A stretch of 64,000 nt of DNA. Origin: an uncultured Gammaproteobacteria bacterium. GTDB taxonomy: Bacteria; Patescibacteriota; Patescibacteriia; Patescibacteriales; WJLG01. The notes under the pieces were generated by a model, which was given only the letters and a program-made list of their open reading frames with translations, did no database searches and had not been told where the DNA came from. Every line of letters begins with the position of its first letter. Position 1 is the first letter of the stretch. Positions 1,397 through 29,680 of the stretch are shown here, in pieces. The stretch lies in NCBI GenBank assembly GCA_964395625.1, contig CAYNAR010000002.1:781-64780 (forward strand). Direction: 5' to 3'. A program made the translations under genes and the position numbers.

Positions 1397-1400
1397 ATAA

Positions 1401-1445
1401 CCACACACCCCGGCCTTGCGGCCACCCCTCTGACAGAGGGGAATT
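1401..1445 (-). repeat. copy A of a ~45-bp two-hairpin palindromic repeat (inverted orientation, intergenic)
   Basis: The reverse complement reads AATTCCCCTCTGTCAGAGGGGTGGCCGCAAGGCCGGGGTGTGTGG. This is nearly identical to two segments inside ileS (21962-22009 and 22361-22403). Confidence 0.85.
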
Positions 1446-1451
1446 AAATCT

Positions 1452-19243: not shown

Positions 19244-22200
19244 ATGGAAAACAACAATCAGGAAAGGAAAAATATCTTCACAGGGATGGAGACTGATGTC
19301 TTGGCGTTTTGGGAGGCGAATAAGATTTTCGAGAAATCGGTTGAGAATCCGCCAGTTGGCGGAGCGCCGAAAGGTGAGTATGTTTTTTATGACGGTCCGC
19401 CGTTCGCGACTGGTACTCCGCATTATGGACATTTGGTCGCTTCGCTGATGAAGGATGTTGTGCCTCGTTATTGGACTATGAATGGTTTTTCCGTGCATCG
19501 CCGCTGGGGTTGGGATTGTCATGGTTTGCCGATCGAGAATATCGTCGAAAAAGAATTAGGACTCTCTTCGAAGAAGGAGATCGAGGAAAAGGTTGGCGTG
19601 GCCGAATTCAACCGCCTTTGCCGTTCCAAAGTTTTGTCATACGCCGACGAATGGAAGAAGACCGTCAAGCGTCTCGGTCGCTGGGTGGACATGGAATATC
19701 CATATCGCACCATGGACTTGCCGTTCATGGAAACGATTTGGCACAACATCAAACAGCTTTATGATAAGGGCTTGGTCTATAAGGATTATCGCTCCATGCA
19801 TATCTGTCCGCGCTGCGAGACGACTTTGTCGCAATCGGAAGTGGCGGAAGGGTATAAAGATGTTAAAGATATTACAGTAACCGCGAAATTCGAATTGGTT
19901 GATGAACCAGGCACTTTTGTTCTGGCTTGGACAACTACGCCGTGGACTTTACCGGGGAATGTGGCGCTCGCTGTTGGAGCTGATATCGATTATATTCTAG
20001 TTAAGGATTTGTATATACCAGAAAAAACAGCTAATCCGATAGGAGCTGTTGGAGAGGTCGTCATGAAAGAAGAGAAAACATCGCAATATATTTTAGCCAA
20101 AGAAAGATTTGAAAGTTACAAGAAGAGTTTTAACAATCAAGAACCAAAAATAATTAGAGAATTTAAAGGTTCCGAATTGGTTGGCAAAAGCTATAAGCCT
20201 GTTTTCGATAATTATGCCAGCGATGAAAAATTAGTTAATCGTGAACGCGGTTGGAAGATTTACGCCGCCGATTTTGTCGATACAGAGACTGGTACCGGCA
20301 TCGTTCATATCGCACCGGCTTTCGGCGAAGACGACATGAAGCTCGGTCGCGCGGAAAAATTGCCGTTCATTCAGCATGTTGGCATGGACGGAACTTTCAA
20401 GTCGGAAATGGGTGAGATGGCCGGTCTGCATGTCAAACCGAAAGACGATGTTCAAGCGACCGATGTGGCTATCATAAAATATTTAGCCGCCAAGGGTTTA
20501 TTATTCTCCAAAGAAAAGCATGAGCACTCTTATCCGCATTGTTGGCGCTGCGATACGCCGTTATTAAATTATGCTACTTCGTCTTGGTTCGTCGATATCA
20601 CCAAGATGAAAGACAAGATGCTGGAAGAAGCCAAGAACATCAACTGGTCGCCGGAACACGTCAAAGACGGCCGTTTCGGTCAGTGGCTCTCCGGTGCGCG
20701 CGACTGGTCGATTTCTCGCCAGCGTTTTTGGGCATCCTGCATACCGATTTGGGAATGCGCTTGCGGTAAAAAAGAAGTCTTGGGCTCTTTGGAAGAATTG
20801 TATAGAAAATCCAATGGCGCCATAACAAAGTTGATTTTGGTGCGTCATGGCCAGGCCGAGAACAATGTCGAGAATATCATTACTAATCGCACCGATAAAT
20901 ACGATTTGACCGAGCTTGGTAAGAAGCAGATCGCCGAGGCGGCGGAAAAAGTCGCTGGCGAGATTTCACAATATCCTGAGAAGGTTCTTTTCTTGGCCTC
21001 TCCGGTCTTGCGCGCCCACGAGAGCGCCGAGATGATTTCCAAAAAGATCGGCATCGGGTACAAGATGGATGATGGTATCAAGGACATGGACTTCGGTCAA
21101 TGGGAGGATCGGGACGAGGATGACGATTTGGATTATAACGACGAATTACGCATCAAGTATAACAAACTCACTAAGGAGGAGAAGTGGGCCTTTAAGCGTG
21201 GAGGCACCGGCGAGAGCAGTAAGGATGTTGGCGAAAGGGTCTTCATTTGGTTCAAAGATATTTTGAAAGAGAATGCTGGCAAGACGATCATTGCCGTATC
21301 GCACGCCGATCCGATCATTGATTTGGTTAATAAATTGAAGAGCAGAAGCGACCATGAATCTTATCTGGCTTGGGATGGTCAGGAGTATCCGAAGAATGGC
21401 GAGGTGAAGGTTTTGTATGTCGATAATTCCACCGGTTTAGAGGTGGATATTCATAAAGATTCTTTAGATAAAATCGGTCTTTTGTGCGACAAGTGCGGCG
21501 GCACGATGAAGCGCATCCCGGATGTCTTGGATTGTTGGTTCGAGTCCGGCTCCATGCCTTATGCGCAATGGCATTATCCTTTTGAGAATAAAGAGCGTTT
21601 GGATAAGAATTTTCCCGCGCAGTTCATTGCCGAAGGTATTGATCAGACTCGTGCTTGGTTCTATTATCTGCATGCTATTTCCGTCGGCATTAAAGACAAG
21701 CATGCTTTCGACAACGTCATAGTCAACGGCATCGTTTTGGCCGAGGATGGCAAGAAGATGTCTAAGAAGCTCAAGAACTATCCTGATCCGAACGAGGTTT
21801 TGGAGAGACAGGGTGCTGACGCTTTGCGTTATTATCTTCTGACTTCTCCGGTCATGCAGGCCGAGAATCTGAGCTTCTCCGAGAAGGGTGTGGCCGAGTG
21901 TTTGCGCAAGGTCAATATGCTTTTGTGGAACGTCTATAAGTTCTACGAAACTTATGCAGAAAATTCCCCTCTTGAGAGGGGTGGTGCCGTAATCGGCGAC
22001 GGGGTGTGTGAGGCTGGTCAGAAGAATGTTCTCGATAAATGGATTGTGGCAAGATTGAATCAATTGGTAAGCGAAGTTAGTGGGGGAATGAATAAATATG
22101 ATTTGCCAAAAGCTACTCGCCCAATAGCCGCATTCATCGATGATTTCTCCACTTGGTATTTAAGAAGGAGTCGCGACAGATTTAAAGAAGAAGGTGAGGA

Positions 22201-22915
22201 CAAGAATAACGCCTTGGCGACCACGAAATTCGTTTTGATAGAATTATCCAAGGTCATGGCGCCATTCACGCCGTTCATCGCCGAACAAATATGGCAGAAG
22301 GTGACAGGAAATAATCTTGCTAATGTTGAGAAGTCGGTTCATCTAGAAAAATGGCCTGATAATTCCCCTCTAGAAAGAGGGGTGGCCGAAGGCCGGGGTG
22401 TGTCCAGTGATTCCGAAGAAGGTGATGTTGTCGCGGAAATGGCAACTGTTCGTAAAATCGTAGAACTTGGTTTATCCAAGAGAGATGAAGTTGGAATCAA
22501 AGTTCGCCAACCGCTTTCTGAATTACGAATTACGAATTACGAGCTACGAAACGAATACGTTGATTTGATTAAAGACGAATTGAATGTAAAAAATATCTCT
22601 TGCAATGATGGTGAAGGTGAGTTAAGCGTCGAATTGGATACAACAATGACCCCGGAACTTCTTGCCGAAGGTGCTAAGCGCGAATTAGTCCGCTTAGTTA
22701 ACGCCGAACGCAAGAACGCCGACCTGACTATCGCCGACCGCATCAAGCTGTATTGCGACGCGCAGGGCGAGATGACTAAAAAGGCCTTGACCGATTTTGG
22801 CGATGAGCTTAAGAAGGATGTCTTGGCCGAAGAGATAATCATCGGCGGTGTCGAAGGCGGTAAAGAAGTCGATGTCAACGGAGAGAAAGCTGTTATTAAA
22901 ATAGAGAAGATATAA
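19244..22915 (+). CDS. ileS: isoleucine--tRNA ligase with an embedded histidine-phosphatase domain and two in-frame repeat insertions
   Basis: 1223 aa. PPFATGTPHYGHL (HIGH region), KMSKKLKNYPDP (KMSKS) and an editing domain. An internal LVRHGQ...SPVLRAHESA...VSHADP block spans 20822-21421. Confidence 0.95.
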   Translation: MENNNQERKNIFTGMETDVLAFWEANKIFEKSVENPPVGGAPKGEYVFYDGPPFATGTPHYGHLVASLMKDVVPRYWTMNGFSVHRRWGWDCHGLPIENIVEKELGLSSKKEIEEKVGVAEFNRLCRSKVLSYADEWKKTVKRLGRWVDMEYPYRTMDLPFMETIWHNIKQLYDKGLVYKDYRSMHICPRCETTLSQSEVAEGYKDVKDITVTAKFELVDEPGTFVLAWTTTPWTLPGNVALAVGADIDYILVKDLYIPEKTANPIGAVGEVVMKEEKTSQYILAKERFESYKKSFNNQEPKIIREFKGSELVGKSYKPVFDNYASDEKLVNRERGWKIYAADFVDTETGTGIVHIAPAFGEDDMKLGRAEKLPFIQHVGMDGTFKSEMGEMAGLHVKPKDDVQATDVAIIKYLAAKGLLFSKEKHEHSYPHCWRCDTPLLNYATSSWFVDITKMKDKMLEEAKNINWSPEHVKDGRFGQWLSGARDWSISRQRFWASCIPIWECACGKKEVLGSLEELYRKSNGAITKLILVRHGQAENNVENIITNRTDKYDLTELGKKQIAEAAEKVAGEISQYPEKVLFLASPVLRAHESAEMISKKIGIGYKMDDGIKDMDFGQWEDRDEDDDLDYNDELRIKYNKLTKEEKWAFKRGGTGESSKDVGERVFIWFKDILKENAGKTIIAVSHADPIIDLVNKLKSRSDHESYLAWDGQEYPKNGEVKVLYVDNSTGLEVDIHKDSLDKIGLLCDKCGGTMKRIPDVLDCWFESGSMPYAQWHYPFENKERLDKNFPAQFIAEGIDQTRAWFYYLHAISVGIKDKHAFDNVIVNGIVLAEDGKKMSKKLKNYPDPNEVLERQGADALRYYLLTSPVMQAENLSFSEKGVAECLRKVNMLLWNVYKFYETYAENSPLERGGAVIGDGVCEAGQKNVLDKWIVARLNQLVSEVSGGMNKYDLPKATRPIAAFIDDFSTWYLRRSRDRFKEEGEDKNNALATTKFVLIELSKVMAPFTPFIAEQIWQKVTGNNLANVEKSVHLEKWPDNSPLERGVAEGRGVSSDSEEGDVVAEMATVRKIVELGLSKRDEVGIKVRQPLSELRITNYELRNEYVDLIKDELNVKNISCNDGEGELSVELDTTMTPELLAEGAKRELVRLVNAERKNADLTIADRIKLYCDAQGEMTKKALTDFGDELKKDVLAEEIIIGGVEGGKEVDVNGEKAVIKIEKI
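21962..22009 (+). repeat. copy B of the two-hairpin palindromic repeat, in frame in ileS
   Basis: AATTCCCCTCTTGAGAGGGGTGGTGCCGTAATCGGCGACGGGGTGTGT, translated as NSPLERGGAVIGDGVC. Confidence 0.85.
22361..22403 (+). repeat. copy C of the two-hairpin palindromic repeat, in frame in ileS
   Basis: AATTCCCCTCTAGAAAGAGGGGTGGCCGAAGGCCGGGGTGTGT, translated as NSPLERGVAEGRGV. Confidence 0.85.
22520..22547 (+). repeat. tandem heptamer GAATTAC x3 plus one degenerate unit, inside ileS
   Basis: GAATTAC GAATTAC GAATTAC GAGCTAC, encoding ELRITNYEL. Confidence 0.7.
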
Positions 22916-28124: not shown

Positions 28125-28694
28125 ATGATTTCATATCTTAAAGGAAGAATAATTAAACGAGGGGGGAATTTCGTCATTTTGAATAACGCCGATATCGGTT
28201 ACAAGATTTTCGTCGGCGAGGGCGCAGTCGCCGATTTGGCGACTGGCAATGAGGTGGAATTTTGGATATATCAAAATATTCGCGAGGACGCTAACGAACT
28301 TTACGGCTTTTTATCCTATGAAAAGTTGGAAATGTTTGAATTGCTTTTGAATGTCAACGGTATCGGTCCGAAGTCGGCTATGGGTATTATGACTGCCATC
28401 AATGCCGAGGAGCTTAAAGAGGCGATAGCGACCGGCGATTTGGCGATGCTCACTAAGGTTTCCGGTATCGGCAAAAAAACTGCCGAGAGGATCGTCTTGG
28501 ATTTGCGCGACAAGGTTGGTTTTCTATCTCCTGTCATTGGTTCGACTTCTGCCGCTCGTGGCGACGAAATCGACGCCTTGATGGCTCTCGGCTATTCCAT
28601 GCAAGAATCGCGCGAGGCTTTGTCTGGGGTCGATAAATCCATTACTGATAGCGGAAAGAGGATTCGCGAGGCTCTTAAGTCAATGAAGAAATAA
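28125..28694 (+). CDS. ruvA: Holliday junction DNA helicase subunit RuvA
   Basis: 189 aa. MISYLKGRI..., HhH motifs (VNGIGPKSA, VSGIGKKTAERIVL). Confidence 0.9.
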   Translation: MISYLKGRIIKRGGNFVILNNADIGYKIFVGEGAVADLATGNEVEFWIYQNIREDANELYGFLSYEKLEMFELLLNVNGIGPKSAMGIMTAINAEELKEAIATGDLAMLTKVSGIGKKTAERIVLDLRDKVGFLSPVIGSTSAARGDEIDALMALGYSMQESREALSGVDKSITDSGKRIREALKSMKK

Positions 28695-28702
28695 GATTTT
28701 AT

Positions 28703-29680
28703 ATGCAGTTAGTGGAGATAAAAGATAAAAATAAGTTGAATGATTTTGTCGGTTCGCAAGAACGGGCGGAACTTTTGCAATCTTGGGAGTGGGGTGAATT
28801 TCAAGAGAAGGCTGGTGCCAAGGTTTTGCGTTTTGGAGTGGAGGAGAATCGTCAACTTGTCGCTGTCGCGACGTTGATCAAAAAATCCTTACCGCTGGGG
28901 ATGAACTATCTATATTGCCCCAGAGGGCCGGTGATTGATTATAAATCATCGATTACGAATGATAAGCTGGAAGATTTTTTATTTTTGGAAATAGAAAAGA
29001 TTTTTAATAAGGAGAAGATCGTATTTTTAAGAATCGAGCCTAGGGAAAAAATCAATAATTCACGATTCATAATTAATAGTTCATTGGATATTCAGGTCAG
29101 CAAGACGATATTTTTGGATTTAAAAAAGACCGAAGAGGAGTTATTAAAAGAGATGCACCAGAAAACTCGTTACAACATCCGCTTGGCCGAGAAGAAGGGC
29201 GTTAAAATCGTCGAGGTGGGCGTCGATAGGTTCGAGGAGTTTTGGAATTTGATGTCGCAGACCGTGAATCGTGATGGTTTTAGACTGCACGAGAAAGAGT
29301 ATTATAAAAAAATGCTAGAGCTCGACAATATAAAGTTGTTTTTCGGTATATTCGACGAAAAAATACTTTGCGCCGGAATATTTTCTTTCTTCGGCGACAC
29401 AGTTACGTACCTACACGGTGCTTCCTCTAACGAGAACCGTGAACTGATGGCTCCGTATCTTTTACAATGGGAATTGGTTAGGCGTGCCAAAGCTGACGGC
29501 TACAAGTTGTATGATTTTTTCGGTATCGACGAGAAGAAATGGCCCGGGGTCACTCGTTTTAAAAAGGGGTTTGGCGGTGAGGAGGTTCGGTATCCAGGAA
29601 CTTTCGATGTGATTTTGGATGGTTTCAAATATCGAGCTTATGGCGTGCTTCGTAAAATCAGAAGATTTATAAGAATTTAA
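28703..29680 (+). CDS. FemAB-family peptidoglycan bridge-forming aminoacyl transferase
   Basis: 325 aa. The length and the QSWEWGEF..., MHQKTRYNIRLAEKKGV and ...YDFFGI patterns fit the FemX/MurM family. Confidence 0.8.
   Translation: MQLVEIKDKNKLNDFVGSQERAELLQSWEWGEFQEKAGAKVLRFGVEENRQLVAVATLIKKSLPLGMNYLYCPRGPVIDYKSSITNDKLEDFLFLEIEKIFNKEKIVFLRIEPREKINNSRFIINSSLDIQVSKTIFLDLKKTEEELLKEMHQKTRYNIRLAEKKGVKIVEVGVDRFEEFWNLMSQTVNRDGFRLHEKEYYKKMLELDNIKLFFGIFDEKILCAGIFSFFGDTVTYLHGASSNENRELMAPYLLQWELVRRAKADGYKLYDFFGIDEKKWPGVTRFKKGFGGEEVRYPGTFDVILDGFKYRAYGVLRKIRRFIRI

What the first reader, a model, noticed from the sequence alone, without database searches (positions are those of the whole stretch)
21962..22403. 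A ~45-bp two-hairpin palindromic repeat is inserted twice, in frame, inside the ileS coding sequence
Two segments of ileS are near-identical at the DNA level. Copy B (21962-22009) reads AATTCCCCTCTTGAGAGGGGTGGTGCCGTAATCGGCGACGGGGTGTGT. Copy C (22361-22403) reads AATTCCCCTCTAGAAAGAGGGGTGGCCGAAGGCCGGGGTGTGT. Each folds as hairpin 1 (CCCCTCT/AGAGGGG), then hairpin 2, then a GGGGTGTGT tail. In hairpin 2, GGCC/GGCC in copy C is replaced by GCCG/CGGC in copy B, which is a compensatory change that preserves pairing. Both copies keep the reading frame, encoding ENSPLERGGAVIGDGVCEAG and DNSPLERGVAEGRGVSSD. Both lie where IleRS alignments are length-variable: after YKFYETYA and after HLEKWP in the anticodon-binding/C-terminal region. 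A third copy sits in the opposite orientation in an intergenic spacer (1401-1445), so the conserved unit is a nucleic-acid element and not a peptide motif. This behaviour parallels the Rickettsia palindromic elements, which insert in frame into protein-coding genes. I am not aware of it being described for this kind of organism.
Basis: partly seen in the sequence, partly recalled or inferred. Interest (0 to 1): 0.8.

Follow-up and report, generated by a model that had tools for sequence, protein, structure and literature searches.

The report
Triplex-forming DNA repeat inside ileS
Two in-frame 14-16-codon blocks in the isoleucyl-tRNA synthetase gene of a Patescibacteria bacterium are copies of a short DNA repeat found in many phyla, whose conserved parts fit a DNA triple helix formed within one strand, a known but little-studied kind of bacterial repeat so far reported only between genes.

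Summary
The window holds exactly three copies of one element: two in frame in ileS and one inverted between genes. None is expected by chance.

The tail GGGGTGT is the mirror image (A->T) of the purine arm AGAGGGG of hairpin 1. That is the third strand of a class II purine-motif intrastrand DNA triplex. Hairpin 2 acts as a structured linker.

The mirror rule holds across variant families. It also passed a prospective test on an independent metagenome scan: arm GGAGGGG is followed by tail GGGGTGG/GGGGAGG in 130 of 146 copies.

The kind is known: PIT/BoxC/TMECO repeats of E. coli (Hoyne and Maher; Holder et al. 2015), reported as strictly intergenic. This family differs in three ways:
- its second loop carries a hairpin, which earlier searches could not detect;
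- it occurs in more than 15 phyla;
- it sits in frame in coding genes of one Patescibacteria clade (three IleRS linkers and a FemAB-family gene).

Empty orthologous sites, nucleotide conservation far above synonymous-site identity, and predicted disordered loops support DNA insertion over a peptide motif. How the element spreads is unknown. Verdict: a new variant of a known kind, behaving like Rickettsia palindromic elements.

The parts
21962..22009 (+). Triplex-motif copy B, in frame in ileS (codons N907-C922, 48 nt). Layout: AATT 21962-21965; pyrimidine arm CCCCTCT 21966-21972; loop TG 21973-21974; purine arm AGAGGGG 21975-21981; junction TGG 21982-21984; hairpin-2 linker TGCCGTAATCGGCGAC 21985-22000; third-strand tail GGGGTGT(GT) 22001-22009.
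   Evidence: predicted disordered loop
22361..22403 (+). Triplex-motif copy C, in frame in ileS (N1040-V1053). Layout: AATT 22361-22364; pyrimidine arm 22365-22371; loop AGAA 22372-22375; purine arm 22376-22382; TGG 22383-22385; hairpin 2 CCGAAGGCC 22386-22394; tail GGGGTGT(GT) 22395-22403.
1401..1445 (-). Triplex-motif copy A, intergenic, read on the - strand. Layout: AATT 1445-1442; pyrimidine arm 1441-1435; loop 1434-1432; purine arm 1431-1425; TGG 1424-1422; hairpin 2 CCGCAAGGCC 1421-1412; tail 1411-1403. It fills most of the 55-nt spacer between ORF 845-1396 and ORF 1452-1643.
   Evidence: (I1)
19244..22915 (+). ileS (IleRS, 1223 aa), the host gene of copies B and C.
28679..29680 (+). FemAB-family gene of the window. 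It is the empty orthologous site (..VKIVEVG|VDRFEEFW..) for the 51-nt in-frame copy present in the relative L122.

Best explanation
The three copies belong to a cross-phylum family of short dispersed DNA repeats with a 43-48-nt core. One strand of the element can fold back on itself twice to form a class II purine-motif intrastrand triple helix:
- Hairpin 1 (CCCCTCT / AGAGGGG) is the Watson-Crick duplex.
- The 3' tail GGGGTGT lies antiparallel to the purine arm as the reverse-Hoogsteen third strand (G.G-C and T.A-T triads).
- Hairpin 2, flanked by the conserved TGG and (A)C, is a structured linker. It takes the place of the 3-nt second loop of E. coli BoxC/TMECO.

The element acts at the DNA level, as a self-propagating, structure-forming repeat. 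It is neither an RNA gene nor a peptide motif. In one Patescibacteria clade, copies have entered coding genes or been copied into them. Only stop-free, frame-preserving copies in tolerant surface linkers persist, and they are translated as Gly/Pro-rich 14-17-residue loops (NSPLERG...).

Shown here: the sequence architecture, arm-tail and hairpin-2 covariation, absence of strand bias, presence/absence among orthologs, and the loop location.

Inferred: that the triplex forms in vivo on transiently single-stranded DNA; that it stalls polymerases and promotes local rearrangement and copying (as reported for BoxC); and that the ileS copies are tolerated passengers.
For: Mirror rule. The tail is the mirror of the purine arm with G->G and A->T/A in all three window copies. 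The same holds in 83 of 87 canonical hairpins in the other loci. Variant arms have matching variant tails: GAAGGGG->GGGGTAG 18 of 18, GGAAGGGG->GGGTAGG 3 of 3, AAAGAGGGG->GGGGTGTTT.

Prospective test. A fresh metagenome scan for arm CCCCTCC/GGAGGGG found tail GGGGTGG/GGGGAGG in 130 of 146 copies, against 2 with a GGGGTGT-type tail.

No Watson-Crick alternative. No base-pairing register explains a mirror repeat (inference from the sequence).

Hairpin 2. It varies freely while staying paired: 90 distinct linkers, 82 with at least 4 pairs.

Orientation. Copies show no bias relative to neighbouring genes: 25 same/same against 23 opposite/opposite. No Rfam family matches.

Literature. Class II is defined as pyrimidine, purine, then reverse-Hoogsteen strand. 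The triads are A(T)AT and GGC. The purine motif does not form in RNA. A BoxC/TMECO triplex was shown by CD and NMR (PMC4666352).

Insertion rather than peptide motif. TM blocks are 98.7% identical against 52% at four-fold sites. Presence is patchy on the IleRS tree. The FemAB-family site is empty in the window, L124 and L125, and the L122 FemAB copy shares its hairpin 2 with the L122 ileS site-1 copy. Copies have 60-67% GC in a gene with 46% GC.

Tolerance. Both inserts fall in segments with pLDDT below 50, between helices with block-mean pLDDT of about 77-92, and at gaps relative to PDB 8c9d.
Against: - Triplex formation has not been measured for this family. Seven triads is short, and the linker is much longer than any tested in vitro.
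- The family subdivisions are related by descent, so the counts overstate the number of independent covariation events. In effect a few arm types covary with a few tail types.
- AATT, TGG and AC are conserved, and the triplex model does not explain them.
- No mobilising enzyme, terminal inverted repeats or target-site duplication were found, so the spreading step is inference.
- Site 2 has the same junction and frame in five orthologs. That could be one old insertion kept by selection rather than repeated insertion.
Confidence: 0.75

Rival explanations
1. It is an ordinary REP- or MITE-like hairpin repeat, moved by a transposase encoded elsewhere in the genome. The conserved AATT head and GGGGTGT tail are protein recognition or cleavage sites, and the triplex-like mirror symmetry is incidental.
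For: Presence/absence among orthologs and genome-specific subfamilies. Copies often occur as inverted or head-to-head pairs, and in Verrucomicrobia as about 120-nt palindromic units. The conserved AATT/TGG/AC positions are not explained by a triplex.
Against: No transposase or other recurrent gene lies near 138 copies in 120 loci. No TIR or TSD could be defined. A protein site would not make the tail change T->G exactly when the arm changes A->G. The related BoxC also has no link to a transposon.
Confidence: 0.12
2. It is a structured RNA element (a two-hairpin motif) acting in transcripts, for example on mRNA stability, termination or translation.
For: There are two stable hairpins with compensatory changes. 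The AGAGGGG arm of the intergenic copy lies 10 nt before an ATG.
Against: Copies show no orientation bias relative to genes. No Rfam match. No terminator or promoter consensus at the intergenic copy. The conserved tail has no base-pairing partner, and purine-motif triplexes are reported not to form in RNA.
Confidence: 0.05
3. The G-rich strand forms a G-quadruplex or switches between structures, as proposed for the archaeal rPQS repeats, and that is the selected structure rather than the triplex.
For: G runs are present (AGAGGGG, TGG, GGGGTGT). The rPQS repeats of Methanomicrobiaceae switch between hairpin, triplex and G4 in vitro (PMC8044849).
Against: Only two runs of four G are conserved, so four runs are not available within one unit. 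The conserved T positions of the tail track the A positions of the arm, which a quadruplex does not require.
Confidence: 0.05
4. The blocks are a conserved peptide motif of IleRS, selected at the protein level.
For: The NSPLERG peptide recurs in 8 of the 17 closest IleRS relatives (8 of the 120 homologs listed), always in one frame.
Against: Nucleotide identity in the blocks is about 99% against about 52% at synonymous sites. The tail is read in three different frames. Intergenic and antisense copies occur in many phyla. The motif is absent from the other 112 of the 120 IleRS homologs examined, and from the closest ones, P0002-P0004. The segments are predicted to be disordered.
Confidence: 0.02

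Closest known systems
Potential intrastrand triplex (PIT) elements = BoxC = TMECO of E. coli and relatives (Hoyne/Maher 2000, 2002; Holder et al. 2015, PMC4666352)
   Same: Both have the class II order: pyrimidine arm, loop, purine arm, loop, G/T(A)-rich mirror strand. Both have GC-rich stems of 7-9 triads with G.G-C plus T.A-T or A.A-T. Both are multi-copy dispersed repeats, often in inverted pairs, with no strand bias and no linked transposase, and both are associated with local rearrangement (here).
   Different: The sequence differs: TMECO is CCCTCNCCC-N3-6-GGGNGAGGG-N3-GGGNGAGGG. Here the second loop is a 12-to-about-90-nt linker containing a covarying hairpin, not 3 nt, so it lies outside the loop limits of both published searches (1-6 and 0-10 nt). 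This family also has a conserved AATT head, is spread over many phyla rather than Proteobacteria, and occurs in frame inside genes, whereas TMECO is 'always located intergenically'.
Rickettsia palindromic elements (RPEs; Ogata et al. 2000, 2002, as summarised in PMC10969869)
   Same: Both are short palindromic repeats found between genes and in frame within unrelated housekeeping genes, at positions compatible with protein fold and function.
   Different: RPEs are about 150 bp, fall into ten Rickettsia-specific families, and each encodes a conserved peptide. The core here is 43-48 nt, is shared across phyla, has a three-part triplex architecture, and its peptide differs with frame and with hairpin 2. 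No homology between the two has been shown.
REP/BIME elements and bacterial MITEs
   Same: All are small, non-autonomous, hairpin-forming dispersed repeats that cluster and nest.
   Different: No RAYT or other transposase, TIR or TSD was found. REPs are species-specific, whereas this core is conserved across phyla.
Recurrent PQS/triplex repeats of Methanomicrobiaceae (PMC8044849)
   Same: They are G-rich dispersed repeats next to a C-rich arm that form an antiparallel triplex in vitro, with no orientation bias.
   Different: Their domain order is the opposite (G-rich strand first, C-rich arm at the 3' end). They are found only in archaeal methanogens and are all intergenic.

Membership tests
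Class II purine-motif intrastrand triplex motif (structural class, as defined in PMC4666352) | A 5' pyrimidine-rich domain followed by a complementary purine-rich domain, forming a Watson-Crick hairpin | tested here: met
   CCCCTCT/AGAGGGG in all three window copies; folds as DNA
Class II purine-motif intrastrand triplex motif (structural class, as defined in PMC4666352) | A 3' reverse-Hoogsteen domain antiparallel to the purine arm, giving G.G-C and A/T.A-T triads (a mirror of the purine arm) | tested here: met
   GGGGTGT against AGAGGGG, 7 of 7 triads. Variant arms have matching tails. Prospective test: 130 of 146.
Class II purine-motif intrastrand triplex motif (structural class, as defined in PMC4666352) | Physical formation of the triplex by the single strand | not testable with these tools
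   Needs CD, NMR or DMS footprinting. Shown only for TMECO in the literature (abstract).
ITxF / Hoyne operational definition of an intrastrand triplex motif | Both loops short (1-6 nt in ITxF; 0-10 nt in Hoyne et al.) | tested here: not met
   Loop 1 is 2-4 nt. The second connector is 12-19 nt in the window and up to about 90 nt elsewhere, and contains hairpin 2.
BoxC / TMECO sequence family | Consensus CCCTCNCCC-N3-6-GGGNGAGGG-N3-GGGNGAGGG | tested here: not met
   The window copies read CCCCTCT..AGAGGGG..GGGGTGT, with 7-nt arms.
BoxC / TMECO sequence family | Strictly intergenic location | tested here: not met
   Two of the three window copies, and copies in relatives, are in frame in ileS and a FemAB-family gene (for TMECO).
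Rickettsia palindromic elements | In-frame insertion in unrelated protein-coding genes as well as intergenic copies | tested here: met
   ileS (three sites), FemAB family, TsaC/Sua5, HhH-GPD glycosylase, GT4 glycosyltransferase
Rickettsia palindromic elements | Units of about 150 bp from Rickettsia-specific families, each encoding a conserved peptide | tested here: not met
   The core is 43-48 nt, occurs in many phyla, and its peptide varies with frame and hairpin 2. Sequence similarity to RPEs was not tested.
MITE | Terminal inverted repeats and target-site duplications; derivation from an IS element | tested here: inconclusive
   No conservation beyond AATT and the tail, and no usable empty site with a duplication. 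No transposase in 120 loci.
Rfam RNA families | Match to a curated covariance model | tested here: not met
   No relevant hit at E<=1 in ten loci that carry copies. The window itself was not scanned.

The most novel reading that the evidence does not exclude
This is a pan-bacterial (and possibly archaeal) family of triplex-forming DNA elements with a conserved three-part core and a freely varying hairpin 'cassette'. It spreads without a transposase of its own, through a host-universal single-stranded-DNA process such as fork stalling and template switching, or a still unknown structure-specific nuclease. In compact Patescibacteria genomes it has become a regular source of new surface loops in essential proteins.
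Probability: 0.25. Interest if true: 0.85.

Novelty: new variant of a known kind. Interest (0 to 1): 0.65.

Why it matters
Intrastrand triplex repeats (BoxC/PIT/TMECO) have been known for more than 25 years, yet their function and means of spread are still unknown.

This family supplies something the E. coli repeats could not. It offers many naturally diverged arm/tail variants that obey the G.G-C / T.A-T rule, which is evidence from natural sequence variation that the triple-helix contacts themselves are conserved. It also offers a variable hairpin in the connector that labels subfamilies.

The results show that the published searches, limited to short loops, miss a large cross-phylum family.

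They also show that such DNA can live inside essential genes: three linkers of IleRS and a FemAB-family gene in one Patescibacteria clade. [quoted passage not shown] It also warns annotators that NSPLERG-type peptide blocks are repeat-derived.

Tried and rejected
- Rfam scan of ten loci carrying copies: no relevant family.
- Full-text search for the conserved blocks as sequence strings: only unrelated human-gene papers.
- Search for CPR plus palindromic element plus in-frame: nothing relevant.
- Search for a linked mobilising gene. All-against-all clustering of 2685 ORFs from 120 loci gave only common families: histidine kinase, ABC transporter, glycosyltransferase, RarA, oxidoreductase, DnaJ.
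- Phage origin: only 4 hits in 2.9 million viral contigs.
- Target-site duplication or precise empty site. The only syntenic pair among the scan loci (L006/L089) shows a messy array with partial units and indels, not a clean insertion.
- Other repeat families in the window: the repeat finder shows none of note; this element gives the top inverted pair.
- Terminator or promoter role for the intergenic copy: no consensus match.
- Stop codons as the cause of the NSPL frame: rejected, because each sense frame is open in 56-71% of elements.
- P0007 DNA could not be fetched because the sample file is too large.
Full report
**1. Observation**

The three sequences are present as described. Copy B is at 21962-22009 and copy C at 22361-22403, both on the + strand. 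Copy A is at 1401-1445 on the - strand.

B and C lie in the 1223-aa ORF 19244-22915. Pfam identifies this ORF as IleRS: tRNA-synt_1, Anticodon_1 and DUF5915, plus an embedded His_Phos_1 domain. The best database relatives are Patescibacteria (CPR) proteins. Both copies keep the reading frame.

Copy A sits in the 55-nt spacer between ORF 845-1396 and an HTH-type ORF at 1452-1643.

The repeat is not a chance event. CCCCTC-N2-12-GAGGGG occurs 3 times against 0.04 expected. It is the only notable repeat family in the window. The copies have 60-67% GC inside a gene with 46% GC.

**2. The element is not confined to this organism**

I scanned one genome per GTDB species for AATTCCCCTCT-N2-6-AGAGGGGTGG. 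The hits include Verrucomicrobia, Planctomycetes, Nitrospinota, Ignavibacteria, Paceibacteria, Bacillota, Bacteroidota (Pedobacter, Chryseobacterium, Cloacibacterium), Gammaproteobacteria (Cysteiniphilum), Zixibacteria, Fibrobacteria, Aminicenantes and an archaeal MAG.

The search pattern did not constrain the downstream sequence. Even so, 126 of the 138 copies continue with a variable hairpin and then (A/C)CGGGGTGT(G/T)T. There are 90 distinct connectors of 9-88 nt, and nothing is conserved upstream of AATT. In 82 of the 90 connectors at least 4 pairs are predicted.

Several negative results narrow the possibilities:
- Viral contigs hold only 4 copies.
- No Rfam family matches.
- No transposase or other gene recurs next to the copies.
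- Orientation relative to neighbouring genes is random: 25 same/same against 23 opposite/opposite, and 16 against 16 for the mixed cases. This argues for a DNA-level element and against an RNA-level one.

**3. What the 'tail' is**

Read 3'->5', the tail GGGGTGT is TGTGGGG. Aligned antiparallel to the purine arm 5'-AGAGGGG-3', every G faces a G and every T faces an A.

That is the code of a purine-motif (reverse-Hoogsteen) triple helix: G.G-C and T.A-T. The order of the domains is pyrimidine arm, loop, purine arm, connector, third strand. This matches class II of the intrastrand triplex classification (PMC4666352).

The rule is not peculiar to one sequence. Neighbouring variant units in the same loci follow it:

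| Purine arm | Tail | Count |
|---|---|---|
| AGAGGGG (canonical) | GGGGTGT | 83 of 87 |
| GAAGGGG | GGGGTAG | 18 of 18 |
| GGAAGGGG | GGGTAGG | 3 of 3 |
| GGGAGGG | GGGTGGG | seen, not counted |
| AAAGAGGGG | GGGGTGTTT | seen, not counted |

Within the canonical set, a G next to the purine arm goes with a G at tail position 8 in 34 of 35 distinct copies (Fisher p about 1e-12).

As a prospective test I scanned the metagenome collection for the variant arm ATTCCCCTCC-N2-6-GGAGGGGTG. Of 146 distinct copies with a G-run tail, 130 carry GGGGTGG or GGGGAGG and only 2 carry a GGGGTGT-type tail.

No Watson-Crick register explains a mirror repeat. This last step is inference from the sequence.

In the window, a search for the full three-part motif finds exactly the three copies, with none in 100 shuffles.

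**4. Relation to what is known**

Intrastrand triplex repeats are a described kind of element. E. coli BoxC was re-described as 'potential intrastrand triplex' (PIT) elements by Hoyne and Maher, and as TMECO by Holder et al. 2015. Holder et al. showed a triplex by CD and NMR and linked the loci to genomic instability. They found the repeats always intergenic, without strand bias and without a transposon link. They also state that purine-motif triplexes do not form in RNA.

TMECO reads CCCTCNCCC-N3-6-GGGNGAGGG-N3-GGGNGAGGG. The family described here has a connector of 12 to about 90 nt containing a hairpin, so both searches would have missed it.

A related archaeal repeat with the opposite domain order is also reported as intergenic (PMC8044849). 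A recent MITE review does not mention triplexes at all.

The window element is therefore a structural relative of BoxC (class II triplex motif) but not a member of the BoxC sequence family.

**5. Insertion in genes**

*Site 2.* At the DNA level, site 2 (after SVHLE.WP) carries the element in five orthologs: P0001 (the window protein), P0006, P0008, P0013 and P0015. Orientation and frame are the same in all five. Their three conserved blocks are 97-100% identical, while four-fold synonymous sites of the same genes are only 44-60% identical.

Hairpin 2 differs among these orthologs with full compensation:
- CCGAAGGCC in P0001, P0008 and P0013;
- CGCGTCCCTGACGCG in P0006;
- CCAGTCCCTGACTGG in P0015.

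This distribution does not follow the IleRS tree.

*Site 1.* Site 1 (after YKFYE.Y) carries the element in the window protein and in P0005. P0006 has a CCCCTCC/GGAGGGG/GGGGAGG variant there.

*Site 3.* A third site (after RSRDRFK) is occupied in P0005, P0014 and P0015.

*Orthologs without it.* The closest orthologs, P0002-P0004, lack the element. Among 120 IleRS homologs, only 8 carry it, all from the clade whose IleRS contains the His_Phos domain.

*FemAB-family gene.* In the genome of P0005, a FemAB-family gene carries a 51-nt in-frame copy, translated as KSPLERGGAAAATGCVT. The orthologs in the window, L124 and L125 have no recognisable copy at that position. Its hairpin 2 (CGCCGCCGCGGCG) differs by one base from that of the same genome's ileS site-1 copy. 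This points to copying within a genome.

*Other phyla.* In-frame copies also occur elsewhere, at about 4 of 138 copies: a Sua5/TsaC linker (antisense), an HhH-GPD glycosylase, a GT4 glycosyltransferase, and the C-terminal part of a large secreted protein.

*Reading frame.* Every canonical sense-strand genic copy is read as AAT TCC CCT CT. (N-S-P-L). Yet each sense frame is free of stop codons in 56-71% of elements. This suggests that selection acts on the encoded loop, or that the copies share ancestry.

**6. Where the inserts sit in the protein**

The closest solved IleRS (8c9d) aligns with gaps at both sites.

I ran an AlphaFold2 model of residues 760-1223, using 30 aligned relatives (mean pLDDT 74).
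- N907-C922 corresponds to fragment residues 148-163. It overlaps the coil 154-169 and the low-confidence segment 153-166.
- N1040-V1053 corresponds to fragment residues 281-294. It overlaps the low-confidence segment 283-295.

Both inserts lie between long, more confidently modelled helices, with block-mean pLDDT of about 77-92.

The inserts are thus predicted to be flexible linkers of the anticodon-binding region. This is consistent with tolerated passengers.

**7. Mechanism, and what is inferred**

Shown here:
- the three-part architecture;
- covariation of the third strand with the duplex, and of the two sides of hairpin 2;
- indifference to strand orientation;
- patchy presence among orthologs, with empty sites;
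- nucleotide-level conservation;
- location in loops.

Inferred:
- When the strand carrying the pyrimidine arm, purine arm and GT tail is single-stranded (during replication, transcription or repair), hairpin 1 forms and hairpin 2 brings the tail back into its major groove.
- As reported for BoxC, such structures block polymerases in vitro and mark unstable loci. Messy indels with partial units at an array in two related Ignavibacteria fit this.
- Stalling with template switching, or an unknown structure-specific enzyme, copies the unit to new places.
- In gene-dense Patescibacteria genomes, only frame-preserving copies in linkers survive.

The conserved AATT, TGG and AC positions and the cross-phylum spread remain unexplained.

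**8. Verdict**

The element belongs to a known kind (intrastrand triplex repeats) rather than being a new palindromic element. It is a new variant in three respects:
- a connector that carries a hairpin;
- a distribution across many phyla;
- RPE-like in-frame residence in essential genes.

Physical proof of the triplex, and the mechanism of spread, are still missing.

Noticed in passing
window 20831-21337 (IleRS aa 530-698): A complete histidine-phosphatase domain (Pfam His_Phos_1, E 7e-28) is inserted inside the class I catalytic domain of IleRS. It is shared by the closest relatives. More distant Patescibacteria IleRS proteins carry NUDIX and/or rhodanese domains, according to their precomputed Pfam lists.
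   Followed up: partly
window 22520-22560 (ileS): An in-frame tandem 7-nt repeat, GAATTAC x3 plus degenerate copies, encodes ELRITNYELRNEY. Peptides of the same ITNYEL(R/Q)ITN type fill the site-1 linker of relatives P0004, P0009 and P0021.
   Followed up: partly
L124 and L126 (ileS site 1); L121 (ileS site 2): Other palindromic insert families occupy the same IleRS linkers in relatives. Seen as DNA: TGTCATTCCGAGCGGAGCGTCAGCG.AGTCGAGGAACC (CHSERSVS.VEEP) and ATGTCATTCTGGCGAAGGCCGGAATCC (MSFWRRPES). Related SFPRRRESS and APLLSKEG blocks were seen only as peptides. These linkers appear to be general landing sites for GC-rich hairpin DNA.
   Followed up: partly
window 1397-1451: The intergenic copy fills nearly the whole spacer between two co-oriented ORFs. 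Its AGAGGGG arm lies 10 nt before the ATG at 1452 and could serve as the ribosome-binding site. No terminator or promoter consensus was found.
   Followed up: partly
L030, L064, L111 (Verrucomicrobiales); L009, L015, L072, L086: Units often occur as pairs. Some are tail-to-tail inverted pairs flanking about 40 nt, giving units of about 120 nt. Others are head-to-head pairs with a variant unit. This resembles the tandem inverted TMECO pairs of E. coli.
   Followed up: no
L006:6700-7420 versus L089:2900-4420: Two related Ignavibacteria genomes differ at an array of these and other repeats by indels that include a partial unit (connector end plus tail). This fits the local instability described for triplex repeats.
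   Followed up: partly
window, whole length: GC skew is positive throughout, so the cumulative skew rises steadily. The 64 kb therefore probably lie on one replichore. The two ileS copies have their triplex-forming strand on the G-rich (+) strand, and copy A has it on the other.
   Followed up: no
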